Assembly (NCBI GenBank): GCA_037305845.1
Contig: CP147778.1
Location: 991,069-1,015,068 of the forward strand
DNA: 24,000 nt
Origin: Candidatus Freyarchaeum deiterrae
GTDB taxonomy: Archaea > Asgardarchaeota > Jordiarchaeia > Jordiarchaeales > Jordiarchaeaceae
Direction: 5' to 3'
Part shown: positions 806 to 16,916 of the stretch, one piece after another
Numbering within the stretch: the stretch's first letter is position 1
Layout of the letters: every line of letters begins with the position of its first letter
Notes under the pieces: generated by a model
Database searches by the model: none
Told to the model about the DNA's origin: nothing
The model's input: only the letters and a program-made list of their open reading frames with translations
Position numbers and translations under genes: made by a program

Positions 806-1429
806 ATGCCACCGAATGTATCGTTAGCGTTAAAGAAGGTAAAAGCGGGTATTAGAACCCCCAAGTTTGATTGCCAGCAATGCGGAACATGCTGTGTAAA
901 GTATGTTATATGCGTAACTCATAAAGACGCTTTTCGAATATCAAAACAAACCGGATTAGATCCTCATGAATTCCTAAATTGCACAATCCCTGAAAAAGGA
1001 GTGGAAGAATCATTTAAGGGTGTTCCGAGATTCATGGGACAAGATGAAAAAAAGTGGATACTGTGCATTAAAGAAAATGAGAAGACTAGCGGTTGTATGT
1101 TTAACAGTTCTGGACCCTGTGGGATTTATCCAGCCCGACCGTATGTATGCCACGCGTTTCCCTTTCTTTGGAGAAGGGACAACGATACAGATGTATTCAC
1201 GTTTAACAAGGACTCTGTGGAGTTTTGCAAGGGTTTGAAAGGAAAGGTGAACAAATACCCCTTTGATGCAGTAGCCAAGGATATGAGAATATCAGAAAAA
1301 GAGGACAAGGAATACGCTCAAATTTGTAAGGAATGGAACGACCGCGTGGAAAAGAAAGAAATAGAGTCTCCTTCATTAGAATCGTTCATCGACTTTATTA
1401 TGAAAAAAGCGTCAGATGAAGGAAATTGA
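806..1429 (+). CDS. YkgJ/UPF0153-family cysteine-cluster protein (CxxCxxCC putative Zn/Fe-chelating domain)
   Basis: 207-aa ORF with CQQCGTCC near the N-terminus and a downstream GCMF...GPCGIYPARPYVCHAFPF pattern typical of the family. Its TGA (1427-1429) overlaps the TTG start of the next gene (1426). Confidence 0.75.
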   Translation: MPPNVSLALKKVKAGIRTPKFDCQQCGTCCVKYVICVTHKDAFRISKQTGLDPHEFLNCTIPEKGVEESFKGVPRFMGQDEKKWILCIKENEKTSGCMFNSSGPCGIYPARPYVCHAFPFLWRRDNDTDVFTFNKDSVEFCKGLKGKVNKYPFDAVAKDMRISEKEDKEYAQICKEWNDRVEKKEIESPSLESFIDFIMKKASDEGN

Positions 1430-3772: not shown

Positions 3773-4513
3773 GTGGTATTATTATTGAAATCAAGCAAAC
3801 GCAAGCATGAGGACGATGAGCTTGTCCCAATCATCCCAAGCGAATTCGAGACAGTTCAGGGCATAGAACATAGGAACACGGGGATACTTTTGGGCTTTGG
3901 GATTACTGCGTTGGCTTTGATTATTTCTTTTTTGTTTGCTTATCGTTATTCCGTTTTGGATTCGACTATGATTATTACTGCGTTGGCTTCTTCTATTTCG
4001 TTTTTTGTTTTTTCACTTAGGACGCGTATTCTTGCTCTTTATCTTACTCATCATGAGTCGATAACCAAAGATAAAACCTTCTTAAAGGATATTTGGAGGT
4101 TGACTTTACGTGCGGATGCTTCTAATGAGGTGGGGTTGGCTTTGATTTTGGTTGGTATTTTTCTTTTTCTGATGATTATTGAGTTGGTGATTCCTGCTGT
4201 TGTTATGATGATAATTTTGAATCTTCTTTTCGGTAGGTGGAGTTTTCAGAGGATGGAGGTGGGTGTGAAGGAGAGGTTTAAGGCTATGCCGCATACTAGG
4301 GCTTTGATATCTAGGTTTAGGAATTTCGCTAGGTTTATGATTGTGTTTACGAGAGTCTGGATTCCGGTCTTTATGACGACGTATTATCTGGTTGCGCAGT
4401 ATTCGGAAATTTTTCCTGCGGATAGTTTTTACTGGGTCTTATTATTTTTGGGTGGGGTAGTTCTCTCGGTTGTTTATGTTTTTAGGACGGAGGAACAAGT
4501 TTCAATCATATGA
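3773..4513 (+). CDS. Hypothetical integral membrane protein (about 6 predicted TM helices)
   Basis: 246-aa ORF with a GTG start. It has a charged N-terminus (KSSKRKHEDDE) followed by long hydrophobic segments (ILLGFGITALALIISFLFAY, VGLALILVGIFLFLMIIELVIPAVVMMIILNLLF, FYWVLLFLGGVVLSVVYVF). I recognise no family. Confidence 0.55.
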   Translation: MVLLLKSSKRKHEDDELVPIIPSEFETVQGIEHRNTGILLGFGITALALIISFLFAYRYSVLDSTMIITALASSISFFVFSLRTRILALYLTHHESITKDKTFLKDIWRLTLRADASNEVGLALILVGIFLFLMIIELVIPAVVMMIILNLLFGRWSFQRMEVGVKERFKAMPHTRALISRFRNFARFMIVFTRVWIPVFMTTYYLVAQYSEIFPADSFYWVLLFLGGVVLSVVYVFRTEEQVSII

Positions 4514-4627
4514 ATTTTCTCTCAAAAGACGGGTTTTCCTTCTTCTTTTGTTGTTTGAATATTTTTACTTGCTTGGGCTTCTTTGTTGTTGATGGAGGAT
4601 TCTTTTGTGGGATGGTTATGGTGTGAA

Positions 4628-4641
4628 TGGGAAAAAATGGT
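4628..4641 (-). terminator. Oligo-T tract (T6 on the minus strand) downstream of cofC; candidate archaeal terminator of the cof operon
   Basis: A6 at 4632-4637 on + equals U6 in the minus-strand transcript, about 35 nt after the cofC stop at 4672. Archaeal termination at oligo-T is established; this site is unverified. Confidence 0.3.
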
Positions 4642-4671
4642 TATTTTTGATGGATTTTTTTTGGGTGGGTT

Positions 4672-5331
4672 TTATTTTTTGGGTTTGTTGGATGTTAATT
4701 CTGTGTTTTGTAGTACTTTGAGTGTTTTCGTGTGGTTGCCGCCGTGGTTAATGAATTTTTTTATGTCTTCGATTTCGTCTAAGTCGAGGGTTACTCTTGG
4801 TGAATTGTAGATTTTTGGTTCTATGTTTATTTTTCGGGATTCGTCGAGGTGTTTTTGGAAGCTGTTTTTTCCGAATTTTGGTTCTATGATTTTGGGTGGG
4901 GTTCTGTAGAGGATGTTTGTTCCTCCGGTTAGTGAGGGTGAGAGGATTACGGTGGGTTTTGTTTTTCCTCTAGTGATTATTGTGTCGATGTCTTGGGGTT
5001 TGATTAGGGGTAGGTCGGCTGGGATGACGAGTGTGGCTTCAGCGTTCATCTTTGTTGTGCTGTATTCGGTGGCTTCTGTTATTGCTTGGTTTATTCCTCG
5101 GGGTTTATCCTCGGGTAGTAGTGTGGCGTTTTTTGGGATGATGCTTTCTATTTCTCTGTCGGAAGTTATCACGATAAGGTGATTTGCCCTTTTGGATGAG
5201 GATACTGCTAGGATCACGTCGGAAAGCATGGCTGTTACTAAACGTTTCCTTAGGTCGTCTGAGATTTCGTTTGCTAGGCGTGATTTGGATTCCGCCAGAC
5301 CTTTGAAAGGAATTATAACGTTTACGTTCAA
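4672..5331 (-). CDS. cofC: 2-phospho-L-lactate (or PEP) guanylyltransferase, F420 biosynthesis
   Basis: 219 aa with N-terminus VIIPFKGLAESKSRL, LVIPADLPL and a GGTN motif, all typical of CofC/FbiD. Operon context with cofD and cofE supports the call. TTG start behind AGAGGAA. Confidence 0.8.
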   Translation of the reverse strand: MNVNVIIPFKGLAESKSRLANEISDDLRKRLVTAMLSDVILAVSSSKRANHLIVITSDREIESIIPKNATLLPEDKPRGINQAITEATEYSTTKMNAEATLVIPADLPLIKPQDIDTIITRGKTKPTVILSPSLTGGTNILYRTPPKIIEPKFGKNSFQKHLDESRKINIEPKIYNSPRVTLDLDEIEDIKKFINHGGNHTKTLKVLQNTELTSNKPKK

Positions 5332-5390
5332 TGTTTTTCCTCTGGGAGGGATTTCTGTGTATAGCTTATTTATATTGCCTACCTAATATT

Positions 5391-6170
5391 TTATGCCTTA
5401 TTTTTTTTTAGGGCGTTCTCAACTTCTAGTGCGAGTTTTCCAACCATTTTGGGGTCGCTGAGTGTGTGTCTCGCGACCGAGACTGCTTGTGCTCCTGCTT
5501 TGAGCATTTTTAGAGCTTTATCTACGCTGTTGACAGAGTTGTTGCCGATTAAGAATGTTTTACTTTTCTTTGATACTCGTCTGATGGTCTCCAAATCTGC
5601 TTGGGGATAACCGGGTTTCATAGCATCGATGTGGAGAGCGTCAACTCCAAGGGATTCCAGAATTTTTGCTAGTGATACATCGTCTACCACATTCGCCCGC
5701 CACTTTACGATTAGTGGAATCTTCAATATTCCTTTCAAACTTTTTATCCATTCTATGAGTTTTTCAGGATTGAAGAGTAGAGCTTCGCCTCCGCCCACCT
5801 GTGTGATTTCCGGTTGTCTGCAATGAGCATTTAGTTCGAAAGCTTCTGCTCCACTGTTTTGTACAATTTCTACCGCCTTTAGCAACCCTTTCTGGGTAGC
5901 CGCCCTAACATTCACTGCTACAGGGGTGGTTCCTTTTTTTGCTATTGCTACCTCTTGAATCAGAAAATTTTCCAGATTACCTAACTCCACGTTAAACTCG
6001 CTTCTTCCACTGGCTTTTATTTTGAGCCCTGCGCTAATTGTTGGAATGTCGAAGTTTATGCCGCCTATTGTAACCATTCCCGCTCCCGCTTTAGCCGCTT
6101 CAAAACAGAATTTGCCATCGCAGATACCAGCCATTGCAGCTAAAATTACAGGGTTTCTAATGCTTATCAT
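5391..6170 (-). CDS. Dus/dihydroorotate-dehydrogenase-like FMN-binding TIM-barrel protein (archaeal NifR3-related type); function unassigned
   Basis: 259 aa with PVILAAMAGICDG (cf. Dus LAPMAGVTD), PVAVNVR, and ELNAHCRQPE in which Cys117 (codon 5820-5822) sits where Dus/DHOD carry the catalytic Cys. LIGNNSV and VSVAR form a phosphate-binding tail. Its ATG overlaps the cofD TGA (ATGA at 6167-6170). Confidence 0.75.
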   Translation of the reverse strand: MISIRNPVILAAMAGICDGKFCFEAAKAGAGMVTIGGINFDIPTISAGLKIKASGRSEFNVELGNLENFLIQEVAIAKKGTTPVAVNVRAATQKGLLKAVEIVQNSGAEAFELNAHCRQPEITQVGGGEALLFNPEKLIEWIKSLKGILKIPLIVKWRANVVDDVSLAKILESLGVDALHIDAMKPGYPQADLETIRRVSKKSKTFLIGNNSVNSVDKALKMLKAGAQAVSVARHTLSDPKMVGKLALEVENALKKNKA

Positions 6171-7111
6171 TTTTCAGCCCCTAATCTTTTTATTACAAGC
6201 TTAGCGAGATTCACTTTATCATTTTCATTCTTCATAATAATATTAGCGCAAAAAACTCTGATACCTAGCGCCCTGATTCTTTCAGTAAGAGCCTCATCAC
6301 AGTTATCTATGAAAATTTCATCTATGAGCCCTTGATAAACAAGGGCGACACCGAAGGAGGATACTTCTACGCCTATTCCGCTCAATAGATTCCCAGCCGG
6401 TCCACTAATTGGTTCACTTCCCACTATGGGGCTGATGCAAATTCTCTTAACTTCAGTGCCTTCCAAGGCTTTCCTTATACCGGGTACACCAAGAATTGGA
6501 TTTATACTGGTGACTGGATTGCTGGGACCGATTATTATCCCATCGGCTTTGTTTATTGATTCGGTTACCCCTGGAGCCGGTTTCGCTTTTTTTATTCCCC
6601 TGAAATTTACGCCTAAGACCTTATCTTTCCCTTTTCTCTTTACCCAGAATTCTTGGAAGGGAAGGGTTCCTTTGTCTGTTTTTACAAAGGTGCTAATTTT
6701 TTCATTGGACATGGGTAGAATTTTCACTTTTATATTGAATGCGCGGCATAGGGAAGCAGCGACTTCGGTGAGGTTGTGCCCTCTCTTAAGTAGCATAGTT
6801 CTGTGGAAATGGGTCGCTAGGTCTCGGTCTCCTACTGAAAACCAATCTTCATATCCGTATCTTTTAATCATATTTAGGAAGTGGAAGGTGTCTTCTTTGA
6901 TTCCCCAGAACTTGTTTTCGTCGAGGAGACCTGCCAGAAGGTAGACAGCCGTGTCTAGATCCGGGCTGACGTATAGACCCAGCCATTCAAAGTCGTCAGC
7001 CGTGTTAACTATAATTGTTAATTCTTCAGGTTTTAAGAGAGTAAGGAGTCCCTGAACGAGTTTAAGACTGCCTGTTCCCCCGGACAGTACGGTTATCATT
7101 GTTTCACTCAC
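6167..7111 (-). CDS. cofD: 2-phospho-L-lactate transferase (LPPG:FO transferase)
   Basis: 314 aa with ITVLSGGTGSLKLVQGL, NTADDFEWLGLYVSPDLDT and GDRDLATHFHRT, all CofD hallmarks. The track start is a GTG at 7111. An ATG at 7099 (MITVLSGG) behind GAGTGAGTGA is a plausible alternative. Confidence 0.9.
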   Translation of the reverse strand: MSETMITVLSGGTGSLKLVQGLLTLLKPEELTIIVNTADDFEWLGLYVSPDLDTAVYLLAGLLDENKFWGIKEDTFHFLNMIKRYGYEDWFSVGDRDLATHFHRTMLLKRGHNLTEVAASLCRAFNIKVKILPMSNEKISTFVKTDKGTLPFQEFWVKRKGKDKVLGVNFRGIKKAKPAPGVTESINKADGIIIGPSNPVTSINPILGVPGIRKALEGTEVKRICISPIVGSEPISGPAGNLLSGIGVEVSSFGVALVYQGLIDEIFIDNCDEALTERIRALGIRVFCANIIMKNENDKVNLAKLVIKRLGAEK

Positions 7112-7118
7112 TCTCTGT

Positions 7119-7865
7119 TTATCGGAACATGTCCTTTTCGGACCGTCTCATTAAATCGTTAACAGTTCCTTCTCCCTCAATATAGTTGAATCCTCTTATT
7201 ATGACGACGGGAATTCCTTCGTTAGCCTCTCCCATTATGAGCTCCGCGGCTGAAGCCAGTTCATCTGCTATGCCAACTATTGTGGATTTTAACACGTAAC
7301 CGAATAAATCCACATCGCCACGTCTATCCCACAGAGGCTTCATTCCAGACACACCCAAAGCAACATTTATCGCGCCCTCTCTGAAGGGTCTACCGTGAGT
7401 GTCTGAAATTATTACCGCAACCTTGACTCCAGTCAACTTTTCCAATTCAGTCCTTATTTCTCTAGCTGATTTCACTGAATCCTTGGGCAGAAGAGTGACG
7501 AAATTCTCACCGGGCATGTTTGATTTGTCTACTCCAGAGTTTGCGCAAATATAACCATGCTTGGTTTCTGTGATAATAGCGTACTCCATTCTAATGATTT
7601 GTCTTGCTTCCCTAAAAATAACCTCGACTTGGCGGGGATCCTTTTCGAACCGTTCACCAGTTCGTATAGCCAGATCTGAGGGAACCACTGTATTGAGATT
7701 GACTATGCTGCCCTCTGCTCTAGAAACTATGGTTTGGGCGATGACGAAAACATCCTTGTTTTGAATTTCTATTCCTTGAGCCTCAGCGGCTTCTACAATT
7801 AATTTTGGAACGTTGTCCCCTTCCTGAACTATAGGAATTTCTTTAATGCCCATTATTTGAATCAT
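7119..7865 (-). CDS. cofE: Coenzyme F420-0:L-glutamate ligase
   Basis: 248 aa with VSRAEG, ICANSGVDKSN and ISDTHGRPFREG, the CofE signatures. There is no C-terminal nitroreductase-like (FbiB-type) domain. GAGGGT SD precedes the ATG. Confidence 0.9.
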   Translation of the reverse strand: MIQIMGIKEIPIVQEGDNVPKLIVEAAEAQGIEIQNKDVFVIAQTIVSRAEGSIVNLNTVVPSDLAIRTGERFEKDPRQVEVIFREARQIIRMEYAIITETKHGYICANSGVDKSNMPGENFVTLLPKDSVKSAREIRTELEKLTGVKVAVIISDTHGRPFREGAINVALGVSGMKPLWDRRGDVDLFGYVLKSTIVGIADELASAAELIMGEANEGIPVVIIRGFNYIEGEGTVNDLMRRSEKDMFR

Positions 7866-8736: not shown

Positions 8737-9309
8737 TTAATTCGTAGAGTCCTTTTTAGTGAGGCTTCTACCTAGTTTAACCCCTCTTATTAAAGCCTGA
8801 ACGTTTTTCTCCTTTACATTCTCTTTCAAGTCCAATTGTTCCATCACGTCTAGTAAAGAATTCAGAATTGATTCTTCTGAAACGATATCTGTTATCCCTA
8901 TTAGGGCCCCAAGCATTATCATGTTAGCAGTTGTTGTTGACTGGAAATCGGACTCAGCGATTTGAGTCGAAGGGATTCTGAAAATTTTAAAATTATTTTC
9001 CTGGGAGAATTTAGCATTCTCATCGATTAAAAGTAAACCTCCCTCCTTTAAACCGCTGGTAAATTCCTCCAAGGATTCGTCGGTTAATGAAACCAGAATG
9101 TCAGGCTTCGTTACGATAGGACAAACCACCTCGTTATCAGAAATTATGACATCAGAAGTAGTTGATCCTCCTCTCATCCTCGACTCATAGTTTTGAATAT
9201 TAGTAGCGTTTTTTTCCTCATAAATCACCGCGGCACGTGACAAGACAAGCCCCAAAAACACGATTCCCTGGCCGCCTCTTCCAATAAACTGTATCTCTAA
9301 GGTCGCCAA
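8737..9309 (-). CDS. 2-oxoacid:ferredoxin oxidoreductase, gamma subunit
   Basis: 190 aa with N-terminal GRGGQGIVFLG, typical of POR/KOR gamma subunits. It follows the alpha and beta genes. Confidence 0.85.
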   Translation of the reverse strand: MATLEIQFIGRGGQGIVFLGLVLSRAAVIYEEKNATNIQNYESRMRGGSTTSDVIISDNEVVCPIVTKPDILVSLTDESLEEFTSGLKEGGLLLIDENAKFSQENNFKIFRIPSTQIAESDFQSTTTANMIMLGALIGITDIVSEESILNSLLDVMEQLDLKENVKEKNVQALIRGVKLGRSLTKKDSTN

Positions 9310-9336
9310 AATTAATTCCCTTCTTCTTCTTCTATC

Positions 9337-10257
9337 CTATTCTCTTAAAGATAATTCAAGCCAGTCCAAGTGCGGCTTCTTCAGTTTAATGATTCCCCTT
9401 TGCACACCCTCAATTAGCTTCCTATACTCAAAAGTCATTTCCGGTCTTTCCCGGTCAACAAATTCACCCAGTATCAGTTTACCAGCTGTTTCCCTTTGGG
9501 GAAGATTCTTCGCCCTTTCCAGTTTTAAAGTACGCTCGTTAAACCAATCCATTAGTTTCTTAGGGTCTGATAGTTCGTTCTTTCTACCAAACTGTGTGGG
9601 ACACTGACTGATAACTTCTATATAAGAGAACCCCCGCTTTTGTATGCCCTTGATTATTGAATTTATCACTCTCTTGGGTTGAACGGTACTCCATCGAGCC
9701 ACATAACTTGCACCGGCACTCGTTACCAGTTCGCAGAGATCAAAAAAGCCTTCAATAACGCCATAGGGAGAGGTGTAGGTGTACGCGCCCACGGGTGTAG
9801 TGGGGCTCGTCTGGCTACCGGTCAAAGCATAAACCAGATTGTTAACGCTGATTACGGTCATATCGATGTTTCTCCTAGCAGCATGCACCAGATGTGAAAT
9901 TCCTATAGCTCCGCTATCACCATCCCCGGTGAAGACGATTACTTCGAAATCAGGGTTGAAGAGTTTAATGCCCGTAGCAAAGGCCACGGCTCTCCCATGC
10001 GTGGTGTGCAGACTATCAGCGTTAATATATCCAGGTATTCGCCCCGAGCATCCTATCCCGGAAACAAAAACAGTTTCATCTATGTTTATGCCCAGTTCGT
10101 CAATAGCCCTAAGGGCGCAGTTAAGTACTATTCCATTTCCGCAACCCGGGCAGAAAACCGTGGGAAGCCTATCCTCCCGCAAATATTTTCTCAAAGGCTG
10201 AATAACACCAGTAGTTTCGCTCATGTTTCCACATCCTTCGCCTTCTATAATGTTCAC
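9337..10257 (-). CDS. 2-oxoacid:ferredoxin oxidoreductase, beta (TPP-binding) subunit
   Basis: 306 aa with FCPGCGNG, SGIGCSGR and GDGDSGAIG (TPP motif). The track start overlaps the alpha stop. An alternative ATG at 10224 gives MSETTGV. Confidence 0.9.
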   Translation of the reverse strand: MNIIEGEGCGNMSETTGVIQPLRKYLREDRLPTVFCPGCGNGIVLNCALRAIDELGINIDETVFVSGIGCSGRIPGYINADSLHTTHGRAVAFATGIKLFNPDFEVIVFTGDGDSGAIGISHLVHAARRNIDMTVISVNNLVYALTGSQTSPTTPVGAYTYTSPYGVIEGFFDLCELVTSAGASYVARWSTVQPKRVINSIIKGIQKRGFSYIEVISQCPTQFGRKNELSDPKKLMDWFNERTLKLERAKNLPQRETAGKLILGEFVDRERPEMTFEYRKLIEGVQRGIIKLKKPHLDWLELSLRE

Positions 10258-11414
10258 ACCAGTTTTTTAATCTCGTCCAGAATTTCATTAGGCTTAAATT
10301 GCCTAGCTATACCCATAATTGGAAGAACTTCCGCTTTTCCCTTAGCCGCCTCAGCTACACTGTGAATTATTTGACCCGTATTCAATTCAGGAACCAGTAT
10401 GTAATCCACCTTCTCTGCAATGTTGAGCACCTCCTCGTAGGGAAAAGGCCAGACTGTGATCAAACGCAGATAGTCAATGTTTATTCCCTCTTTCTCCGCC
10501 TCAATAACCGCCTTTAGAGCGACTCTGGAAACGCTCCCAAAAGAGACAACTGCGATCTTTGGATTTTCGGAACTACGTTTTTCAAGGTAGGTAAACTTTG
10601 ATGAATTATTAATTATTTTATCTCTTAAACGCCTAACAAGCTTTAGATGTTTTTCTGGATCATCAATAGGATAACCCTTTTCATTATGGCTCAAACCAGT
10701 GAAATGAATATGATAGCCGGCTCCAAGAGTGGGAAGTGGTGGAGGAATCCCCTCCTCGTCAGCTTTAAAGGGTAAAAATTCTTTTGGAGGAATTTCAGGA
10801 TTCCTTCTCCAAACTATTCTCAACTCATCATGGTCAGGAACCTCAACCTTTTCTCTTACATGAGCCACCTCTTCGTCAGCCAATATTATAACTGGAACCC
10901 GGTAAGTCTCCGAAATGTTGAAAGCCCTAATTGTCAAGTCAAACATCTCCTGTGGAGAAGCGGGGGCAAGAGCTATAATCATACCGTCGCCGTGTCTGCC
11001 CCAAAGAGATTGCATAACATCCCCCTGAGAAACACGCGTAGGCAACCCTGTGCTAGGCCCAGCACGCTGACAATCAACAATTACACAGGGAACCTCACAC
11101 ATAACCGCCCACCCCAAATTCTCCTGCATGAGAGAGAAACCAGGCCCGCTGGTAGCGGTCATTCCCTTTGCACCAGCCATAACAGCACCAATCACCGCCC
11201 CGATAGAAGAAATCTCATCCTCACACTGGAGAAAAACTCCGCCAATCTCTGGCATTCTACGGGCCATAACTTCCATAATCTCGGTAGCAGGAGTTATGGG
11301 ATATCCGGCGAAGAATTTACACCCCGCGGTTATCGCTCCTTCCGCACAAGCCTCATTTCCGCTCATGAAGTAAATTCCAGATTCCAAGAGAAAATCTTTC
11401 AAACCACTTCCCAT
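10254..11414 (-). CDS. 2-oxoacid:ferredoxin oxidoreductase, alpha subunit
   Basis: 386 aa with MSGNEACAEGAITAGCKFFAGYPITPATEI and TSGPGFSLMQE, typical KorA/PorA-type motifs. Substrate specificity (2-oxoglutarate, pyruvate or other) cannot be read from sequence by eye. Confidence 0.9.
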   Translation of the reverse strand: MGSGLKDFLLESGIYFMSGNEACAEGAITAGCKFFAGYPITPATEIMEVMARRMPEIGGVFLQCEDEISSIGAVIGAVMAGAKGMTATSGPGFSLMQENLGWAVMCEVPCVIVDCQRAGPSTGLPTRVSQGDVMQSLWGRHGDGMIIALAPASPQEMFDLTIRAFNISETYRVPVIILADEEVAHVREKVEVPDHDELRIVWRRNPEIPPKEFLPFKADEEGIPPPLPTLGAGYHIHFTGLSHNEKGYPIDDPEKHLKLVRRLRDKIINNSSKFTYLEKRSSENPKIAVVSFGSVSRVALKAVIEAEKEGINIDYLRLITVWPFPYEEVLNIAEKVDYILVPELNTGQIIHSVAEAAKGKAEVLPIMGIARQFKPNEILDEIKKLV

Positions 11415-11748: not shown

Positions 11749-14286
11749 TTAACAGACAGTAAGTGGTTTCGTGCAGCTACAGAAGAAAGCTCTTCCACCT
11801 ATGGCGAGCATCTGTGTTGATGTTTCTTCTCTGTAAATAGTTAGAATGATTTTTCCGAGTACGCCCTCACCGTAGTAGAATTCGAATTGCCCCATCCTGC
11901 AGTGTTTTGTAATGTTCCAGGTGGCTATTTGGTCGCCTACCTGTATTCGAATCATGTGCTCTGAGAGGAACAGGGTAGCATTCCCACTAAACCATTGTTT
12001 GCCTATTAGAAGACCGCCACAGCCCTGGAATGCCTGTTCCATAATGACTGTGGTTGTTTTCGGCGTTTCTTTGTTTCCTGCGTTATCAACGCTGTAGTAG
12101 TCTATGGTGTAGGTTCCGATTGGACCCGTGATATTGAAGGCTCCAACATACTCAGTCCAGTTACCACCGTTGATACGGTAGTAGGTGTTTGCAACTCCTG
12201 AACCGGGAGCAGCGTCGGTGGCTGTGAGAGTGAAAACCGTGCTGGATGTAACATAGATGCTGCCATTCCCGTCAGTGTAGTGGGTTCCAATAATTAATGC
12301 GGTTGTAGGAGGCGTCTTATCGATACATATTGTTTCAGACTTTACAGTTTCCATGTTGCCTGCATTGTCTGTTGACCTGTAATATAATGTAGTTACTCCC
12401 TCGTCTGTGAGGGTGAATGAACCGGTGTAAGTGATCCAGTTGACGTTATCAAAGCTGTAGTTTGTTATGTTTACACCAGAACCAGAAATGCCATCTGTTG
12501 CCGATAAATTGACCATGACATTTGTTACATACCAGCCTCCGAGCCCTAGGGTGCCGTCTAAGCTAATCGTGGTAGTTGGAGCTGTCTTATCGATCAATAT
12601 TGTCTCGGAATTTGTTGTTTCCACGTTGCCTGCGATGTCAGTTGAGTTATAATAGACTGTCGTGGATCCCTCATTTGTGATAGTGAACGGACCTGTATAG
12701 TTAATCCAATTAATTCCATCGAAACTATACGCTGTGTTGGCTACACCTGAAATGTCGTCCATTGCGGATAGCTTGGCAGTCACATCTGATACATACCAGC
12801 CTTCAAGTCCTGAGATGCCGCTTAAATTGATCGTAGTAATTGGCGGCGTCGTATCCCAGGGTAGTAGCATAAATGCATCTGCTTTTTCGTCCCTGGTATC
12901 CCAATTCTGTATTGTTAGAGTGTAAGTGTATACTGGATAATTGCTTTCTATTCTGCCTATTTCATCCGTAACCAGGTTGTCTTTGGGTTGGTTTGGATTT
13001 TGTACTCTGTGAGGGGGGTTAAATGTCTGTCCAGCGTTCAAGTATACAGTGTATTCGAAAACGCCGTCATAGTTGATGTCTATTTTTATTTCAGTGTTAT
13101 CATGTGTTGCACCTATGGTGTAGGCTTTCTGGTAACTTGTTCCAAGTTGACTTGTTGGCTCAAGCAGTTGTGAGAAGGTGTAGTGTCTGTATACTCCAGC
13201 CCAAATGTCGCGCGCATAGATATCGAGTAAATATACTACTCCGATTGGCTTATCACTTGTAATGTGTGAAGAAAAACTTGTGCCTGTTTGGTATGGTAAG
13301 GTTCCGCCTTCATTTAAGGCGTAGTTGTTGCCATCTATGTTGATTAGTGTGTTATCTTGGGTTGCTACTATTCGAAAACCAGAATAGTCAGTAGCATCCA
13401 CGTATCTGAGTGAGATATCAAGATTGAACCAGTAGTCGGTTCCTAACCTGTTTGTGGGAAGCACTGCGTAAGAAAAGGTGTTGTCTCTGTTAGCCCAGTT
13501 CATGCTAACTGCAACCACTCCTATAGGATTGTTAGAAGTTATGTGCGTTCCAGCCGGTGGATTCTGGTAATTTAAAGCAGCTCCTATTCCCTGATTAGCC
13601 CAGGTCATTTCTGGGAAACCGTCGTTATTTGTGTCTATTTGGATATTAGTGCTGGGTGTGGTTGAAACTATGTAGAGGGCCATACAATTGGAAGGAAGAT
13701 AATAATCCATTCCTAAAACATTGGTCGGCAGAGCCTCGTAACTCAAGATTACACTGTCATATATACTATAATCTTCAGAATATATGTGATAGAAAACTGC
13801 AACTGGTTTATCACTAACGATGCGAGTCCCTGAAAGCGGATTTGAAAACGTTACTGGTTGGTTCGCTACCAAATTTAATACGTAATCAAAGTTTCCATCG
13901 TTATCCAAGTCTATTTTGACCTGTGTATCTTGAGCTGAAAACATCCATATATAAGAACCAAAGTTATTTGGACCCCTAAAAGTATTATCCGAGAAAGGCA
14001 GGTAATAATCTGTTCCTACGGTTATAATTGGTGCTTCAGTTGGGTCATTCGGAAATTGTTGCATCGTGTTAGTTTCTTTGTTCACTGCATTCTCAACTAA
14101 GGCATTTAATCCTTTCATATTTTTTAAGCTGTTTTGAAAATAAGTTTGCGTTAATGTATTTGTTAGTGAATTGTACTGTACCGCTTGTTGGTTATGAAAG
14201 GCTAATAATATTGAACCGGAAGATAAAGCAAAAGCCGTTATTAGGATAAGTGCTAGAATTCTTTTTCTATTTTTGAATGTACTCAT
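11749..14286 (-). CDS. Large secreted or membrane-anchored modular repeat protein (adhesin/S-layer-associated type)
   Basis: 845 aa with a basic N-terminus plus hydrophobic helix (KNRKRILALILITAFALSSGSILLAF), i.e. a signal peptide or anchor. Four degenerate ~95-aa beta-sandwich repeats and three tandem ~90-aa Ig-like repeats follow, then a Cys-rich 95-aa C-terminal domain. GGGGAAAAGGA precedes the ATG. Confidence 0.85.
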   Translation of the reverse strand: MSTFKNRKRILALILITAFALSSGSILLAFHNQQAVQYNSLTNTLTQTYFQNSLKNMKGLNALVENAVNKETNTMQQFPNDPTEAPIITVGTDYYLPFSDNTFRGPNNFGSYIWMFSAQDTQVKIDLDNDGNFDYVLNLVANQPVTFSNPLSGTRIVSDKPVAVFYHIYSEDYSIYDSVILSYEALPTNVLGMDYYLPSNCMALYIVSTTPSTNIQIDTNNDGFPEMTWANQGIGAALNYQNPPAGTHITSNNPIGVVAVSMNWANRDNTFSYAVLPTNRLGTDYWFNLDISLRYVDATDYSGFRIVATQDNTLINIDGNNYALNEGGTLPYQTGTSFSSHITSDKPIGVVYLLDIYARDIWAGVYRHYTFSQLLEPTSQLGTSYQKAYTIGATHDNTEIKIDINYDGVFEYTVYLNAGQTFNPPHRVQNPNQPKDNLVTDEIGRIESNYPVYTYTLTIQNWDTRDEKADAFMLLPWDTTPPITTINLSGISGLEGWYVSDVTAKLSAMDDISGVANTAYSFDGINWINYTGPFTITNEGSTTVYYNSTDIAGNVETTNSETILIDKTAPTTTISLDGTLGLGGWYVTNVMVNLSATDGISGSGVNITNYSFDNVNWITYTGSFTLTDEGVTTLYYRSTDNAGNMETVKSETICIDKTPPTTALIIGTHYTDGNGSIYVTSSTVFTLTATDAAPGSGVANTYYRINGGNWTEYVGAFNITGPIGTYTIDYYSVDNAGNKETPKTTTVIMEQAFQGCGGLLIGKQWFSGNATLFLSEHMIRIQVGDQIATWNITKHCRMGQFEFYYGEGVLGKIILTIYREETSTQMLAIGGRAFFCSCTKPLTVC
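12037..12855 (-). repeat. Three tandem Ig-like/OmpL47-type beta-barrel domain repeats (residues 478-567, 568-657, 658-750)
   Basis: Recurrent pattern DKT(A/P)P(T)TT...GWYV..V...L.A.D..SGV..T.YS.D...W..YTG.F.(I/L)T.EG..T(V/L)YY.S.D.AGN.E......I.ID. Repeats 1 and 2 are roughly half identical at the protein level by eye. Confidence 0.7.
12856..14025 (-). repeat. Four degenerate ~95-residue repeats (IgGFc-binding-N-terminal-like beta-sandwich pattern) within the 845-aa protein
   Basis: Each unit begins (A)LPTN.LG.DY(Y/W) and contains I.(A/S)T.D.T.I.ID. It ends in G(T/S).I(T/V)S(D/N).P(I/V)(G/A)V(V/F). Units cover residues ~88-168, 184-262, 274-355 and 374-455. DxDNDG/DTNNDG/NYDG inserts look like Ca-binding turns. 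Confidence 0.55.
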
Positions 14287-15044: not shown

Positions 15045-15935
15045 TTATGTTGTGGATCTTCTGAAGAGGTATGCTCCTATTAGTACCATGCCTACAAATA
15101 TTAGTGAAAGTATTGCTAAATCGTATAGTAGGGAGCCGCCGACTCCGATAAATGCGAAATCTCCGTAGAGTGGTCCGAACTGTCCACCGAGGAGGCAACT
15201 TCTAACTGCGTCGACGGCGTAGGTCAGAGGATTAAACTGAGCGGCGGTCTGTAGCCAGCCGGGCATGGACGATAAAGATGTGATTGCTGGGCTGACAAAG
15301 AAGAGCGGTAATAGGATCATTTGGATTATTCCGAAAAAGGCTTCAACGTTGGCCATTCTTATTCCTGCTGCTGTGGAGATGCCTGCGAGTCCTAGGGCGA
15401 AGATTACCAAGAAGGGGATGGCTAGAGCTATTCCTATGATTCCCGTGTAAATTTTTACTCCTAGAAGAACAGCTACTGCGATAACCACTACGGCTTGGAT
15501 TAGGCTTCTGATCATTGCCGCTATCATTTTTCCGAGAATTATTGAGGAGCGGGGAATTGGAGCAGCTAACATCTTGGTGAAGAATCCGAACCGCTTATCC
15601 CAGATAACACTAATTCCAGATATGAAAGCTGTGGACATTACGGCGTAGGCGATCATCCCGGTTGCTAAGTAAGTGATGTAGTTGATGTTTACCAGATTGG
15701 ATAGTATGTATTTCGTGATATAGTCGACTGGGAGGAGATTCACGAAAATTTGTAGTATGTTAACTGAGCCTAGGGATAGTGAGCCGCCGGCAAGACTGGC
15801 TATTCCTGAGCTTAGGGCGAATCCGAAGAAGGCTAGCCAAACCACGGGCTGTATGAGTGAGGTTATCACCTGTACTTTTCGTCTGATGAAGTGCTTGAGT
15901 TCTCTTTCGGTTATGTACCATGCTTCTCTTAACAA
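15045..15935 (-). CDS. ABC-2 type transporter permease (paralog 2)
   Basis: 296 aa with 6 hydrophobic segments. The N-terminus MLREAWYITERELKHFIRRKVQVITSLIQPVVWLAFFGF is typical of ABC-2/DrrB-like permeases. TTG start 7-8 nt after GGAGGA. Confidence 0.85.
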   Translation of the reverse strand: MLREAWYITERELKHFIRRKVQVITSLIQPVVWLAFFGFALSSGIASLAGGSLSLGSVNILQIFVNLLPVDYITKYILSNLVNINYITYLATGMIAYAVMSTAFISGISVIWDKRFGFFTKMLAAPIPRSSIILGKMIAAMIRSLIQAVVVIAVAVLLGVKIYTGIIGIALAIPFLVIFALGLAGISTAAGIRMANVEAFFGIIQMILLPLFFVSPAITSLSSMPGWLQTAAQFNPLTYAVDAVRSCLLGGQFGPLYGDFAFIGVGGSLLYDLAILSLIFVGMVLIGAYLFRRSTT

Positions 15936-16012
15936 TCACTTTTCCTCCAATAAACCATGTTGGTTCTGTAATTCGTCTTATCCAGGATTAGCTTTTTATC
16001 GAGATTCCATTT

Positions 16013-16915
16013 TTATTTTAGTGCCCGTCTAAATACGGTCACCCCTATCGAAACCATGATAACTATGAATAAGCCTAATACGGCAGCGTCTACCAGAAGG
16101 TTTCCTAAGATTCCCATGAAGGCGTAGTCACCGCCTAGTTGTCCGAACGTTCCGCCGGCGAGCGACAATCTTACGGCATCAACGGCGTATGTTAGAGGAT
16201 TACCAGAAGCCACCCCTTGGAGCCATCCGGGCATAATCGCCACAGGAATTAAGGCTCCTGAAGCGAAGAACAGCGGCAGCAGTACTAGCGCTATGACGCC
16301 GAAAAATTCTTCATGCTCCGCCATCTTGATTCCGACGGCGGTGGACATGCCTGAAAACCCTAAGGCGAAGAGTGCCAGGAAGGGTACTACCAATATTATT
16401 CCTATGATTCCAGTATTTGTTTTTGCGCCTAAAAGTAGTGCTAAAGCTACGACGATGAGTCCCTGTATCATCGCTCTAATTGTTGCCGAGAGCATTTTTC
16501 CTAACATTATGGAGCTTCTCGGAATTGGGGAAACGAGCAGTTTGTTGAGGAACCCGAATCTTCTATCCCAGACTATAGAAACTCCCGCAAACATTGCGGT
16601 GAACATGGAAGTCATCGCCACAATGCCCGGAGCGAGGAAAGAGACGTAACTCATGCTTGTCAAATTTAGAAGAATGTAGCTAGTTATGGGTTCCAAATTT
16701 AGTGATAAAATTATAAAAGTAAGCGTCGTAGGAACACCTTGCACACCTGTTAGACCCAAACTACTCAGATTAAATCCAGGCAATCCGCCACTAAGCGAGT
16801 AACCGAACAGTGCTAACCATATCACCGGTTGCACCAGTGAAGTGATCACCTGAACCCTTTGCCTGTAGAAGTGCCTAAGTTCTCTTGTCGCTACGTACCA
16901 CGCTTCACTCAGCAT
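16013..16915 (-). CDS. ABC-2 type transporter permease (paralog 1)
   Basis: 300 aa, clearly paralogous to 15045..15935 (MLSEAWYVATRELRHFYRQRVQVITSLVQPVIWLALFGY; shared ...NPLTYAVDAVR...). Its ATG lies 1 nt after the ATPase stop. Confidence 0.85.
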   Translation of the reverse strand: MLSEAWYVATRELRHFYRQRVQVITSLVQPVIWLALFGYSLSGGLPGFNLSSLGLTGVQGVPTTLTFIILSLNLEPITSYILLNLTSMSYVSFLAPGIVAMTSMFTAMFAGVSIVWDRRFGFLNKLLVSPIPRSSIMLGKMLSATIRAMIQGLIVVALALLLGAKTNTGIIGIILVVPFLALFALGFSGMSTAVGIKMAEHEEFFGVIALVLLPLFFASGALIPVAIMPGWLQGVASGNPLTYAVDAVRLSLAGGTFGQLGGDYAFMGILGNLLVDAAVLGLFIVIMVSIGVTVFRRALK

Positions 16916-16916
16916 T

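What the first reader, a model, noticed from the sequence alone, without database searches (positions are those of the whole stretch)
5391..6170. FMN TIM-barrel (Dus/DHOD-like) gene translationally coupled inside the cofE-cofD-cofC operon: candidate for the unassigned archaeal F420 step
Seen in sequence: four co-directional minus-strand genes run from 7865 to 4672. cofE and cofD are 7 nt apart. The cofD TGA overlaps the ATG of the 259-aa ORF (ATGA at 6167-6170), and cofC follows after 59 nt. The 259-aa protein has Dus/DHOD-type motifs (PVILAAMAGICDG, PVAVNVR, ELNAHC117RQPE, LIGNNSV, VSVAR). It is a bare barrel with no room for the C-terminal helical tRNA-binding domain of genuine dihydrouridine synthases. 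CofE here lacks any FbiB-like nitroreductase domain. Established knowledge: the kinase proposed to supply 2-phospho-L-lactate (CofB) has never been identified. In bacteria, PEP-derived dehydro-F420-0 is reduced by the FMN-dependent C-terminal domain of FbiB. The DHOD/DPD/Dus barrels use FMN plus an active-site Cys to reduce a C=C conjugated to a carbonyl, which is the chemistry needed to turn the enolpyruvyl group of dehydro-F420-0 into lactyl. Inference: this gene could be a non-homologous dehydro-F420-0 reductase. I recall such co-localisation being remarked on in the F420 literature without a biochemical assignment, but I cannot verify that here.
Basis: partly seen in the sequence, partly recalled or inferred. 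Interest (0 to 1): 0.7.

Follow-up and report, generated by a model that had tools for sequence, protein, structure and literature searches.

The report
Candidate missing reductase for archaeal F420
A small flavin-type reductase gene of unknown function sits directly after the F420-biosynthesis gene cofD in many distantly related archaea, which makes it a specific, testable candidate for the step that creates the lactyl group of coenzyme F420, a step nobody has assigned in archaea.

Summary
On the minus strand the window (Candidatus Freyarchaeum deiterrae, an Asgard archaeon) carries cofE, cofD, a 259-aa ORF and cofC. The cofD stop overlaps the ORF's ATG (ATGA), and all quoted motifs are present.

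The ORF is a confidently modelled bare FMN-type (beta/alpha)8 barrel (pLDDT 97.4). It belongs to the uncharacterised MJ0144 "dihydrouridine-synthase-like" family. It keeps the Dus/DHOD catalytic Cys, Lys and His but lacks the tRNA-binding domain.

The key new result is synteny. In 17 of 17 loci with the free-standing form outside the methanogens, cofD lies immediately upstream. These loci cover several Asgard orders, a haloarchaeal-type contig and four unnamed lineages. The gap is 13 nt or less in 14 loci and the genes overlap in 9. Methanobacteriales carry cofE-cofD-GTP cyclohydrolase III-X.

The family is small (about 70 clusters), and every named cluster is archaeal. No paper in the library links it to F420.

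I conclude it is very likely an F420-biosynthesis reductase, most plausibly converting an enolpyruvyl group to lactyl. Whether it acts on dehydro-F420-0, PEP or EPPG is unresolved. A methanopterin-linked context in Methanosarcinaceae is a real rival. Nothing has been tested biochemically.

The parts
5391..6170 (-). ORF-X: 259-aa MJ0144-like FMN-type (beta/alpha)8 barrel, candidate F420 side-chain reductase. Family-invariant residues are G15, G36, G37, E58, N87, R89, E112, H116, C117, Q119, E121, G128, R158, D182, N210, N211, S231 and R234.
   Evidence: ORF and family scores; alignments and invariant columns; C117, K156/R158 and H180 align with the Dus catalytic Cys, KxR and HGR; pLDDT 97.4; Foldseek hits to Dus, DHOD-B, DPD and OYE.
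6167..7111 (-). cofD (2-phospho-L-lactate transferase). The likely true start is ATG 7099. Its TGA stop overlaps the ORF-X ATG.
   Evidence: TIGR01819, 344 bits. The sequence shows ATGA at 6170-6167. N-terminal MITVLSGGTG matches the Methanobacterium CofD.
7119..7865 (-). cofE (F420-0:gamma-glutamyl ligase), single-domain with no FbiB-type nitroreductase domain.
   Evidence: PF01996 only; TIGR01916, 285 bits; 100% identical to the Ca. Freyarchaeum deiterrae CofE.
4672..5331 (-). cofC (guanylyltransferase), TTG start, 59 nt downstream of ORF-X. A TATAAATA-like element lies in the gap, so cofC may have its own promoter.
   Evidence: TIGR03552, 161 bits; PF01983, 125 bits. Gap sequence read.
6167..6170 (-). 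ATGA overlap of the stop and start codons (cofD TGA, ORF-X ATG), a signature of translational coupling.
   Evidence: The same overlap or zero-gap junction occurs in 12 other loci.

Best explanation
ORF-X is a dedicated enzyme of archaeal coenzyme F420 biosynthesis that works with CofD.

What it is: an FMN-dependent (beta/alpha)8 reductase of the Dus/DHOD/DPD mechanistic type.

Proposed reaction: it supplies the two-electron reduction that turns a PEP-derived enolpyruvyl group into the L-lactyl group of F420. My committed version is reduction of dehydro-F420-0, the product of CofC/CofD acting on PEP and FO, to F420-0. That is the 'CofX' activity postulated by Bashiri et al. 2019, and CofE would then glutamylate the product.

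Proposed mechanism: by analogy with DHOD, Dus and MurB, reduced FMN delivers a hydride from N5 to C3 (the CH2 carbon) of the enolpyruvyl group. Cys117 protonates C2 and sets the L configuration. The conserved Arg/Lys residues hold the carboxylate and phosphate. FMN would be re-reduced by NAD(P)H or F420H2 in the free-standing form. In methanogens the partner would be the Cys-rich 'marker 9' domain, fused or encoded nearby.

Shown here: the fold, conservation of the catalytic motifs, tight and phylogenetically broad coupling to cofD, restriction to archaea, and the lack of any assigned function.

Inferred only: FMN binding, the reaction, the substrate and the electron donor.
For: 1. Synteny. 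cofD is immediately upstream of the free-standing gene in 17 of 17 loci outside the methanogens: the window, L001-L007, L011, L081-L087 and L094. These represent Freyarchaeia, Jordarchaeales, Baldrarchaeum, Borrarchaeota, Sifarchaeum, Hodarchaeales, a haloarchaeal-type contig, the GGACT-fusion lineage and further loci whose records name no order (one labelled only 'Thermoproteota'). The gap is 13 nt or less in 14 loci and the genes overlap in 9. Flanking genes differ between lineages, so the pair itself is what is conserved.
2. Pure F420 clusters. Hodarchaeales and another Asgard genome have cofD-X-cofC-cofG-cofH.
3. Methanobacteriales have cofE-cofD-GTP cyclohydrolase III-X wherever the contig extends far enough. 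Methanococcus has GCHIII-X. GCHIII starts the pathway to the FO precursor (from memory).
4. cofD stays with X even where cofC is elsewhere (haloarchaeal-type L083, L084, L094, Methanobacteriales). That fits an enzyme acting on the CofD product.
5. Haloarchaea have X next to cofD. They make F420 but have no methanopterin and no methanogenesis (PMC8305020).
6. The fold and active site match enzymes that reduce a C=C bond conjugated to a carbonyl. C117, K156, R158, H180 and N210/N211 align with the Dus catalytic and FMN-binding residues. Foldseek returns Dus, DHOD-B, DPD and OYE ene-reductases. The model has pLDDT 97.4.
7. The window's CofE lacks the NTR reductase domain. The archaeal reductase is explicitly unassigned (PMC6450877).
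8. M. mazei CofD processes PEP-derived EPPG in E. coli (PMC8571402), and M. jannaschii CofD has relaxed specificity toward EPPG (PMC8764529). DF420 is described as less stable than the saturated form, which would favour coupling to CofD.
9. The family is compact (about 70 clusters at E<=1e-30 among 1.84 billion representatives). All 12 named clusters are archaeal.
Against: - There is no biochemical or genetic evidence of any kind. Everything rests on gene context, fold and chemical analogy.
- Archaeal CofC enzymes (M. jannaschii, M. mazei) and two archaeal CofC/CofD pairs prefer or are 'highly specific for' 2-PL. The field's latest position is that archaea start from 2-PL (PMC8764529). If so, dehydro-F420-0 may never form in vivo.
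- Early cell-extract work by the White laboratory proposed that lactate is phosphorylated to 2-PL (cited). Under that route no reductase is needed.
- In Methanosarcinaceae and Methanocellales the gene is far from cof genes and sits with CitG-like, DUF447 and dihydromethanopterin reductase genes. In Methanoperedens it stands with none of these.
- Methanogen gene clusters mix several cofactor pathways (purO, atwA, hemA in the same run), so context there is weaker evidence.
- I could not test whether F420-producing archaea outside the sampled lineages (for example Nitrososphaeria) have the gene, nor whether it is absent where CofE carries an NTR domain.
- Bathyarchaeia cofE loci were uninformative.
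Confidence: 0.35

Rival explanations
1. Same enzyme and same chemistry, but one step earlier. ORF-X would be a phosphoenolpyruvate reductase that makes free 2-phospho-L-lactate (PEP + 2[H] -> 2-PL). That would make it the true source of the CofC substrate, replacing the never-found lactate kinase 'CofB'.
For: - Archaeal CofC/CofD pairs strongly prefer 2-PL, and the origin of 2-PL is unknown (PMC8764529; PMC6450877; PMC8498797; PMC8305020).
- No later paper in the library identifies a source.
- X lies between cofD and cofC in many loci (window, L002, L006, L007, L081, L086, L087).
- Beyond the Dus core there are four family-specific conserved cationic residues (R54, R56, R89, R118) plus H116. 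These would suit a small tri-anionic substrate such as PEP.
- All the synteny and fold evidence listed for the best explanation applies equally here.
Against: - The invariant partner is cofD, not cofC, including in lineages where cofC is elsewhere.
- The barrel is as small as a Dus catalytic domain. No extra lid element stands out in the secondary structure, whereas small-substrate relatives such as DHOD close a loop over the substrate (inference; pocket geometry was not measured).
- No PEP reductase is known (from memory).
- White-laboratory extract data pointed to lactate as the precursor.
Confidence: 0.25
2. Same chemistry on the activated intermediate. CofC makes enolpyruvyl-diphospho-guanosine (EPPG) from PEP, ORF-X reduces it to lactyl-diphospho-guanosine (LPPG), and CofD, which prefers LPPG, transfers it to FO.
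For: - This reconciles the abundance of PEP, the missing 2-PL source and the LPPG preference of archaeal CofD.
- The gene often sits between cofD and cofC.
- CofC and CofD are reported to cooperate closely and channel labile intermediates, so a third partner in the complex is conceivable.
Against: - EPPG and LPPG are unstable and stay tightly bound to CofC, which leaves little opportunity for a third enzyme.
- Archaeal CofC prefers 2-PL over PEP in vitro (PEP turnover 3.5-30%).
- There is no direct evidence.
Confidence: 0.07
3. ORF-X belongs to another archaeal cofactor pathway, most plausibly tetrahydromethanopterin biosynthesis. One candidate is the unassigned flavin-type reduction of the ribofuranosyl-aminobenzene intermediate. 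On this view its position next to cofD reflects mixed 'cofactor super-operons'.
For: - In Methanosarcinaceae and Methanocellales the gene, fused to marker 9, is followed by overlapping CitG-like and DUF447 genes and then dihydromethanopterin reductase (TIGR02700, 407 bits).
- CitG-like and DUF447 genes are known from methanopterin-linked gene islands of methylotrophs (from memory).
- Asgard archaea and methanogens both use methanopterin-dependent C1 pathways.
- Methanobacteriales clusters do mix pathways.
Against: - Haloarchaea lack methanopterin (PMC8305020 supplement) yet have cofD-X-CitG-DUF447 with overlapping genes.
- In Hodarchaeales the gene is embedded in a pure five-gene F420 cluster.
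- All named family clusters are archaeal. No bacterial methylotroph member was seen among about 70 clusters, though only 12 carry names.
- The cofD junction is overlapping or near-overlapping in many lineages.
Confidence: 0.12
4. It is what its database name says: an RNA dihydrouridine synthase, or another nucleic-acid or pyrimidine reductase, unrelated to F420.
For: - It scores above the Pfam Dus threshold (72 bits against 20.4).
- The nearest solved structures are DusB, Dus and DusC.
- The catalytic Cys, Lys and His are conserved, as are the Asn residues that bind uracil in Dus and DHOD.
- Sources annotate it as 'tRNA-dihydrouridine synthase'.
Against: - It lacks the C-terminal helical tRNA-binding domain.
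- It scores 74 bits against a 293-bit cutoff for DusB and 28 against 397 for DusA.
- The profile search shows a sharp break between this family and true Dus.
- The family-specific motif is H-C-R-Q-P-E rather than G-C-P.
- Gene context is cofactor biosynthesis in every lineage examined and never RNA modification.
- No publication shows RNA activity for the family.
Confidence: 0.04
5. It has an F420-linked role that is not enolpyruvyl reduction. Examples are a flavin:deazaflavin oxidoreductase acting on the uracil-like ring of FO or F420 during or after assembly, or a step in supplying the pyrimidine precursor.
For: - C5=C4a-C4=O of 5-deazaflavin is chemically analogous to C6=C5-C4=O of uracil, the Dus/DPD substrate (inference).
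- The pyrimidine-binding Asn positions are conserved.
- GTP cyclohydrolase III is adjacent in Methanobacteriales and Methanococcales.
- One lineage carries a fusion to a gamma-glutamyl cyclotransferase-like domain.
Against: - No biosynthetic step is known to need deazaflavin reduction.
- The archaeal pyrimidine reductase ArfC is already assigned (from memory).
- The tightest and broadest partner is cofD, the side-chain transferase.
Confidence: 0.1

Closest known systems
MJ0144 family 'RNA dihydrouridine synthase-like protein' (NCBIfam TIGR00736, nifR3_rel_arch; a hypothetical equivalog of unknown function)
   Same: It is by far the best family match (201.5 bits, E 1e-59, full-length alignment 13-239 to 1-226/231). 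ORF-X is 41-45% identical to Methanobacterium members that score 262 bits. It has the same invariant motif set (AMAG, RGRxEF, VNxR, E-x-N-A-H-C-R-Q-P-E, KxR, HxDAM, GNNS, SxxR) and the same bare-barrel size.
   Different: The score is just under the curated cutoff of 218.7. More distant relatives linked to cofD score 121-162 bits. The Asgard and haloarchaeal form stands alone and is coupled to cofD. The methanogen form is fused to, or encoded near, methanogenesis marker 9. The family itself has no demonstrated function.
tRNA dihydrouridine synthases (DusA/B/C, Dus2; Pfam PF01207)
   Same: FMN-type (beta/alpha)8 barrel. The N-terminal (A/P)MAG motif is shared, as are the catalytic Cys, the Lys-x-Arg on beta5, the His on beta6 and the GN(N/G) phosphate loop. 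These are the nearest solved structures (6ei9, 3b0v, 1vhn).
   Different: Sequence identity is only 17-21%. There is no C-terminal helical tRNA-binding domain. It fails the equivalog cutoffs by a wide margin. The loop motif is H-C-R-Q-P-E instead of G-C-P. There are extra conserved Arg and Glu residues. Gene context is cofactor biosynthesis, not RNA modification.
C-terminal nitroreductase-fold domain of bacterial FbiB (FMN-dependent dehydro-F420-0 reductase)
   Same: It carries out the proposed reaction, with the same cofactor (FMNH2) and the same place in the pathway, between the CofD/FbiA and CofE activities (PMC6450877).
   Different: It is not homologous. FbiB-C has a nitroreductase alpha+beta fold (PF00881), and neither ORF-X nor the window's CofE matches PF00881. 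FbiB-C is fused to the ligase, whereas ORF-X is a separate gene coupled to cofD.
Class 1 dihydroorotate dehydrogenase and the FMN domain of dihydropyrimidine dehydrogenase
   Same: Same fold. FMN plus an active-site Cys on the loop after beta4 acts on a C=C conjugated to a carbonyl or carboxylate. DHOD-B and DPD receive electrons through Fe-S partners, which parallels the Cys-rich marker-9 partner in methanogens.
   Different: Scores are far below the family cutoffs (63 against 269 bits). There are no pyrD or preA neighbours, and the barrel is smaller.
MurB (UDP-N-acetylenolpyruvoylglucosamine reductase)
   Same: It is the only well-studied enzyme that reduces an enolpyruvyl group to a lactyl group. 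Flavin hydride goes to C3 and an active-site residue protonates C2 (from memory). This is the closest mechanistic precedent for the proposed chemistry.
   Different: It is unrelated in fold (FAD-binding PCMH type), uses FAD and NADPH, has a Ser proton donor and is bacterial. No sequence or structure match was seen.

Membership tests
MJ0144 family (TIGR00736) | Whole-protein score at or above the curated cutoff of 218.7 bits | tested here: not met
   The score is 201.5 bits. That is a near miss, and this is the best hit by about 130 bits. Methanobacterium relatives score 262 bits.
MJ0144 family (TIGR00736) | Full-length alignment and the shared invariant motif set with bona fide members | tested here: met
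   The alignment covers 226 of 231 model positions. There are 18 invariant columns across 58-63 sequences that include methanogen members.
MJ0144 family (TIGR00736) | Association with the methanogenesis marker 9 domain (fused or nearby), as seen in methanogen members | tested here: not met
   phmmer found no marker-9 homologue in the 24-kb window, and there is no fusion. The rest of the genome was not available.
tRNA dihydrouridine synthase (Dus) | FMN-binding TIM barrel with a catalytic Cys and conserved Lys and His | tested here: met
   C117, K156, R158 and H180 align to the DusB residues. Foldseek gives DusB E 1.6e-13, TM 0.72. Pfam Dus scores 72 bits against a 20.4 cutoff. FMN binding itself is inferred.
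tRNA dihydrouridine synthase (Dus) | C-terminal helical tRNA-binding domain | tested here: not met
   The protein is 259 aa. The model ends with a single helix at 242-258. True Dus hits are 300-350 aa and match in two stretches.
tRNA dihydrouridine synthase (Dus) | Equivalog-level score for DusA, DusB or DusC | tested here: not met
   DusB scores 74 against 293, and DusA 28 against 397. DusC did not reach the reporting threshold for the window protein.
tRNA dihydrouridine synthase (Dus) | Reduces uridine in RNA | not testable with these tools
   This needs an RNA modification analysis of a mutant, or an in vitro assay.
Dehydro-F420-0 reductase (function defined by FbiB C-terminal domain) | Homology to the FbiB nitroreductase domain (PF00881) | tested here: not met
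   There is no PF00881 hit in ORF-X or CofE, and the fold is a TIM barrel. It could only be a non-homologous analogue.
Dehydro-F420-0 reductase (function defined by FbiB C-terminal domain) | Genomic linkage to the F420 side-chain genes | tested here: met
   cofD is immediately upstream in 17 of 17 non-methanogen loci, and Methanobacteriales carry cofE-cofD-GCHIII-X.
Dehydro-F420-0 reductase (function defined by FbiB C-terminal domain) | Catalyses FMNH2-dependent reduction of dehydro-F420-0 to F420-0 | not testable with these tools
   This needs purified protein and LC-MS.
Dihydroorotate dehydrogenase (class 1) | Equivalog-level score and the orotate-binding motif set | tested here: not met
   The scores are 63 bits against 269 (NF005574) and 54 against 270 (TIGR01037).

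The most novel reading that the evidence does not exclude
The MJ0144-like barrel is the long-sought missing enzyme of archaeal F420 biosynthesis. It would be a non-homologous analogue of the FbiB reductase domain (or the first phosphoenolpyruvate reductase) that makes the L-lactyl moiety from PEP. That would remove the need for the never-found lactate kinase CofB. It would also give a first function to 'methanogenesis marker 9', as the enzyme's Fe-S or Cys-rich electron-input partner in methanogens.
Probability: 0.55. Interest if true: 0.85.

Novelty: new variant of a known kind. Interest (0 to 1): 0.74.

Why it matters
F420 is central to methanogenesis, anaerobic methane oxidation, antibiotic biosynthesis and activation of anti-tuberculosis prodrugs, and it is being engineered into E. 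coli and yeast for biocatalysis.

How archaea make its lactyl linker has been disputed since 2001. The proposed lactate kinase (CofB) was never found. The 2019 revision (PEP via dehydro-F420-0) left archaea without a reductase ('CofX'). A 2022 study swung back to 2-phospho-L-lactate without explaining where that compound comes from.

A single conserved gene wedged against cofD in Asgard archaea, haloarchaea and Methanobacteriales (and paired with GTP cyclohydrolase III in Methanococcales) turns this into a simple experiment with a named candidate.

If confirmed, it would:
- complete the archaeal pathway;
- correct thousands of 'tRNA-dihydrouridine synthase' annotations;
- give a minimal four-gene archaeal module for heterologous F420 production;
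- suggest a role for the orphan methanogenesis marker 9.

Tried and rejected
1. Complementarity with FbiB-like CofE::NTR fusions. I searched with the window's CofE, but none of the 120 nearest homologues carried an NTR domain, so the test was uninformative.
2. Unbiased check starting from cofE in Bathyarchaeia. There cofE is not clustered with cofD. A conserved divergent 241-aa neighbour with no Pfam hit is not a family member (hhalign probability 0.1%; no NCBIfam hit).
3. An apparent CofD::X fusion protein (P0339). I rejected it because the CofD-like and X-like parts are separated by low-complexity R/S/T-rich stretches typical of frameshifted high-GC DNA. It shows adjacency only.
4. Literature searches for MJ0144, CofX, methanogenesis marker 9, a PEP reductase, CitG/DUF447 with methanopterin or F420, and cof genes together with dihydrouridine or nifR3. 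Nothing relevant came back.
I rebuilt the alignment.
6. Pocket geometry could not be analysed, because the model coordinates are not exposed to the script environment.
7. Whether the window genome encodes marker 9, cofG/H or a separate NTR elsewhere could not be checked. None is in the 24-kb window.
Full report
**1.

The window carries four co-directional minus-strand genes:
- cofE, 7865-7119 (248 aa)
- cofD, 7111-6167
- a 259-aa ORF, 6170-5391
- cofC, 5331-4672 (TTG start)

The cofD TGA overlaps the ORF's ATG (ATGA at 6170-6167), and cofC follows after 59 nt. HMM scans confirm the three cof genes well above their curated cutoffs: TIGR01916 at 285 bits, TIGR01819 at 344 bits and TIGR03552 at 161 bits. 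CofE has the ligase domain only, with no nitroreductase domain.

One small correction: cofD most likely starts at the ATG at 7099 (MITVLSGGTG, as in homologues). The cofE-cofD gap is then 19 nt rather than 7.

The window's CofE is 100% identical to that of Candidatus Freyarchaeum deiterrae, an Asgard archaeon.

**2. What the protein is**

The ORF matches Pfam Dus (72 bits; cutoff 20.4). Its best match by far is NCBIfam TIGR00736, the 'MJ0144 family RNA dihydrouridine synthase-like protein'. That model is a hypothetical equivalog with no known function. The score is 201.5 bits, just under the 218.7 cutoff. DusB, DusA and DHOD models score far below their cutoffs.

An AlphaFold2 model built on a 58-sequence alignment is very confident (mean pLDDT 97.4, pTM 0.94). 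It shows a plain (beta/alpha)8 barrel plus one C-terminal helix. Foldseek against the PDB returns E. coli DusB, T. thermophilus Dus, DHOD-B, dihydropyrimidine dehydrogenase and old-yellow-enzyme ene-reductases. All are FMN enzymes that reduce an activated C=C bond, and none exceeds about 23% identity. So no member of this family has a solved structure.

A profile search of PDB sequences aligns several residues with their Dus counterparts:
- C117 with the Dus catalytic Cys
- K156/R158 with the Dus Lys-x-Arg
- H180 with the Dus His
- N210/N211 with the FMN-phosphate loop

Eighteen columns are invariant across the family, and all lie at the C-terminal ends of the strands: G15, G36, G37, E58, N87, R89, E112, H116, C117, Q119, E121, G128, R158, D182, N210, N211, S231 and R234. 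The family differs from Dus in two ways. The loop motif is H-C-R-Q-P-E where Dus has G-C-P. There is also an extra RGRxEF element, although the window protein has Ser at position 54.

An exhaustive HMM search of 1.84 billion cluster representatives finds about 70 clusters at E<=1e-30. Below that there is a sharp break to 300-330-aa true Dus proteins. The family is therefore small and distinct.

**3. The main new evidence: synteny**

A scan of one genome per GTDB species found relatives in 438 genomes, and I analysed the best 80 loci. I then searched these and 15 further loci for neighbours, using the window's own proteins and other reference proteins as queries.

| Lineage | Arrangement |
|---|---|
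| Free-standing form outside the methanogens, 17 of 17 loci | cofD immediately upstream |
| Methanobacteriales, wherever the contig extends far enough | purO-cofE-cofD-GTP cyclohydrolase III-X-atwA(A2)-marker 9 |
| Methanococcus aeolicus | GTP cyclohydrolase III-X |
| Methanosarcinaceae, Methanocellales | X::marker 9-CitG-like-DUF447(-dihydromethanopterin reductase) |
| Methanoperedens | X::marker 9 with none of these neighbours |

The 17 loci comprise Freyarchaeia (the window), Jordarchaeales, Baldrarchaeum, Borrarchaeota/Borrarchaeum, Sifarchaeum, Hodarchaeales, a haloarchaeal-type contig, a lineage in which X is fused to a GGACT-like domain, and further loci whose records name no order (one labelled only 'Thermoproteota').

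The cofD-X junction is an overlap in 9 of these loci (-7, -4 or -1 nt), zero in 3, and 13 nt or less in 14 of 17. By the collection's own gene call the haloarchaeal junction is also a 4-nt overlap. Flanking genes differ between lineages, so it is the pair itself that is conserved.

In Hodarchaeales and another Asgard genome the gene lies inside a pure F420 cluster, cofD-X-cofC-cofG-cofH.

From memory, GTP cyclohydrolase III is the first enzyme toward the pyrimidine precursor of riboflavin and FO, and the M. jannaschii enzyme is MJ0145. That fits the family's name.

Named family clusters come from Baldrarchaeia, Hodarchaeales, Heimdallarchaeaceae, Methanobacteriaceae, Methanococcus, Methanopyri, Haloferacaceae/Haloquadratum, Thermoproteota and Hydrothermarchaeota. 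All 12 named clusters are archaeal.

**4. The complicating evidence**

In Methanosarcinaceae and Methanocellales the protein is fused at its C-terminus to the Cys-rich 'methanogenesis marker 9' domain (TIGR03277) and has no cof genes within 10 kb. It is instead followed by overlapping CitG-like and DUF447 genes. In several genomes dihydromethanopterin reductase comes next (TIGR02700, 407 bits). The haloarchaeal-type locus combines both contexts: cofD-X-CitG-DUF447, all overlapping.

This raises a methanopterin-biosynthesis rival. Three points count against it:
- Haloarchaea have no methanopterin (PMC8305020 supplement) but do make F420 and keep the gene against cofD.
- The Asgard clusters are purely F420 clusters.
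- No bacterial member, such as a methylotroph, was seen.

The fusion does link marker 9 functionally to this enzyme. By analogy with DHOD-B/PyrK and DPD, marker 9 may be an electron-input module. That is inference only.

**5. Where the literature stands**

Bashiri et al. 2019 (PMC6450877) showed that PEP gives dehydro-F420-0, which the FMN-dependent NTR domain of FbiB reduces. They noted that archaeal CofE lacks this domain and postulated a separate enzyme, 'CofX'. They searched 1060 archaeal cofE neighbourhoods, but only for PF00881 domains, and found nothing.

The 2021 review (PMC8498797) and the Haloferax annotation paper (PMC8305020) still list the origin of the phospholactyl moiety as unresolved.

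Hasan et al. 2022 (PMC8764529) found that archaeal CofC enzymes and two archaeal CofC/CofD pairs strongly prefer 2-PL. [quoted passage not shown] They also reported that M. jannaschii CofD has relaxed specificity toward EPPG.

M. mazei CofD works on PEP-derived EPPG in engineered E. coli, which has no 2-PL (PMC8571402).

Searches for MJ0144, CofX, marker 9, a PEP reductase, and cof genes together with dihydrouridine or nifR3 found no paper linking this family to F420. The library does not include most subscription-journal papers, so this is not proof of absence.

**6. Interpretation**

The protein is very likely (about 0.8) a dedicated component of archaeal F420 biosynthesis working with CofD. 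The Dus/DHOD/DPD active site (FMN plus Cys) reduces a C=C bond conjugated to a carbonyl or carboxylate. That is the chemistry needed to turn an enolpyruvyl group into a lactyl group: hydride to C3 and a proton from Cys117 to C2, as in MurB and in the FbiB reductase domain. I put the general 'enolpyruvyl-to-lactyl reductase for F420' reading at roughly 0.65.

The stage at which it acts is not resolved.
- **Dehydro-F420-0 (0.35).** In its favour, cofD rather than cofC is the invariant partner, the barrel is small and Dus-like, dehydro-F420 is unstable, and FbiB is a precedent.
- **Free PEP, giving 2-PL (0.25).** In its favour, archaeal CofC/CofD prefer 2-PL, the source of 2-PL is missing, and the family has extra conserved cationic residues.
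- **EPPG to LPPG (0.07).** This would reconcile both bodies of data.

The remaining probability goes to methanopterin or another cofactor pathway (0.12), another F420-linked redox role (0.10) and a genuine RNA dihydrouridine synthase (0.04).

Nothing here is biochemical. FMN binding, the substrate and the electron donor are all inferred.

**7. Verdict**

The protein is a near-threshold member of a known but uncharacterised family. The proposed function would be a new use of a known enzyme type, non-homologous to the bacterial solution.

The value of the finding is that it converts a 20-year-old gap in a major cofactor pathway into a simple experiment with a named gene. Section 'decisive next steps' gives the assays.

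Noticed in passing
window 4050-5250: Extreme local strand asymmetry. On the + strand the GC skew is +0.32 to +0.53 and the AT skew is -0.28 to -0.55, so the minus strand is very A+C-rich. The stretch spans the convergent membrane-protein ORF 3773-4513(+), the intergenic region and cofC 4672-5331(-). The other three operon genes stay within about +/-0.26 GC skew. cofC still scores well as CofC. The cause is unknown.
   Followed up: no
window 7097-7111: The mechanical ORF call starts cofD at GTG 7111. The ATG at 7099 gives MITVLSGGTG, matching the N-termini of homologues and the Pfam alignment start. The cofE-cofD gap is therefore probably 19 nt, not 7.
   Followed up: partly
L013, L015, L018, L023-L080 (many), L090:8001-9140; L053:12496-12975: In Methanosarcinales, Methanocellales and Methanoperedens the ORF-X homologue is fused to the orphan 'methanogenesis marker 9' domain (TIGR03277; two CC...C Cys-rich repeats). 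In Methanobacteriales marker 9 is a separate gene two positions downstream (X-atwA-mmp9). This looks like a gene-fusion ('Rosetta stone') hint to the function of a universal methanogen marker protein.
   Followed up: partly
L090:9127-11736; L083:3739-6031; L051, L062, L070, L076: There is a conserved run X(::Mmp9)-CitG-like-DUF447, often followed by dihydromethanopterin reductase (TIGR02700). In a haloarchaeal-type contig the run is cofD-X-CitG-DUF447 with all genes overlapping. What the CitG-like and DUF447 proteins do in organisms without methanopterin is unexplained.
   Followed up: partly
L094:3996-5054 (P0441; cluster of P0291): One lineage (10 cluster members, 317-352 aa) has ORF-X fused at its C-terminus to a gamma-glutamyl cyclotransferase-like (GGACT/AIG2) domain, again with cofD just upstream. 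This is intriguing because F420 carries a gamma-glutamyl tail. Neighbouring genes include a large FAD-binding flavoprotein with a small ferredoxin-like protein, and an MVD-like kinase.
   Followed up: partly
P0339 (312 aa, metagenomic): This looks like a CofD::ORF-X fusion but is an artefact. In-frame CofD-like and X-like segments are joined by R/S/T-rich low-complexity stretches typical of frameshifts in high-GC DNA. It is a caution for automated fusion detection.
   Followed up: yes
L092:8105-8830(-), L093:8115-8843(-): In two Bathyarchaeia genomes a conserved 241-242-aa gene with no Pfam or NCBIfam hit lies divergently next to cofE. It is not related to ORF-X (hhalign probability 0.1%). Its function is unknown.
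   Followed up: partly
window 806-1429(+) and 21105-21482(-); also L086:7650-8066: The window has two separate CxxCxxCC (PF03692) putative zinc- or iron-chelating proteins. Another lies near the cofD-X-cofC cluster of a different archaeon. This is probably coincidental.
   Followed up: no
window 11749-14286(-): An 845-aa ORF has an IgGFc_binding-type domain (PF17517, 66 bits). It lies next to a three-subunit 2-oxoacid:ferredoxin oxidoreductase (8737-11414) and upstream of an ABC-2 exporter (15045-17909). It is probably a surface or secreted protein.
   Followed up: no
window 5332-5390: The 59-nt gap between ORF-X and cofC contains a TATAAATA-like element (about 5365-5372, minus strand). cofC may therefore have its own archaeal promoter, whereas cofD and ORF-X are translationally coupled. 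I read this by eye. The available promoter tool does not cover archaeal promoters.
   Followed up: no
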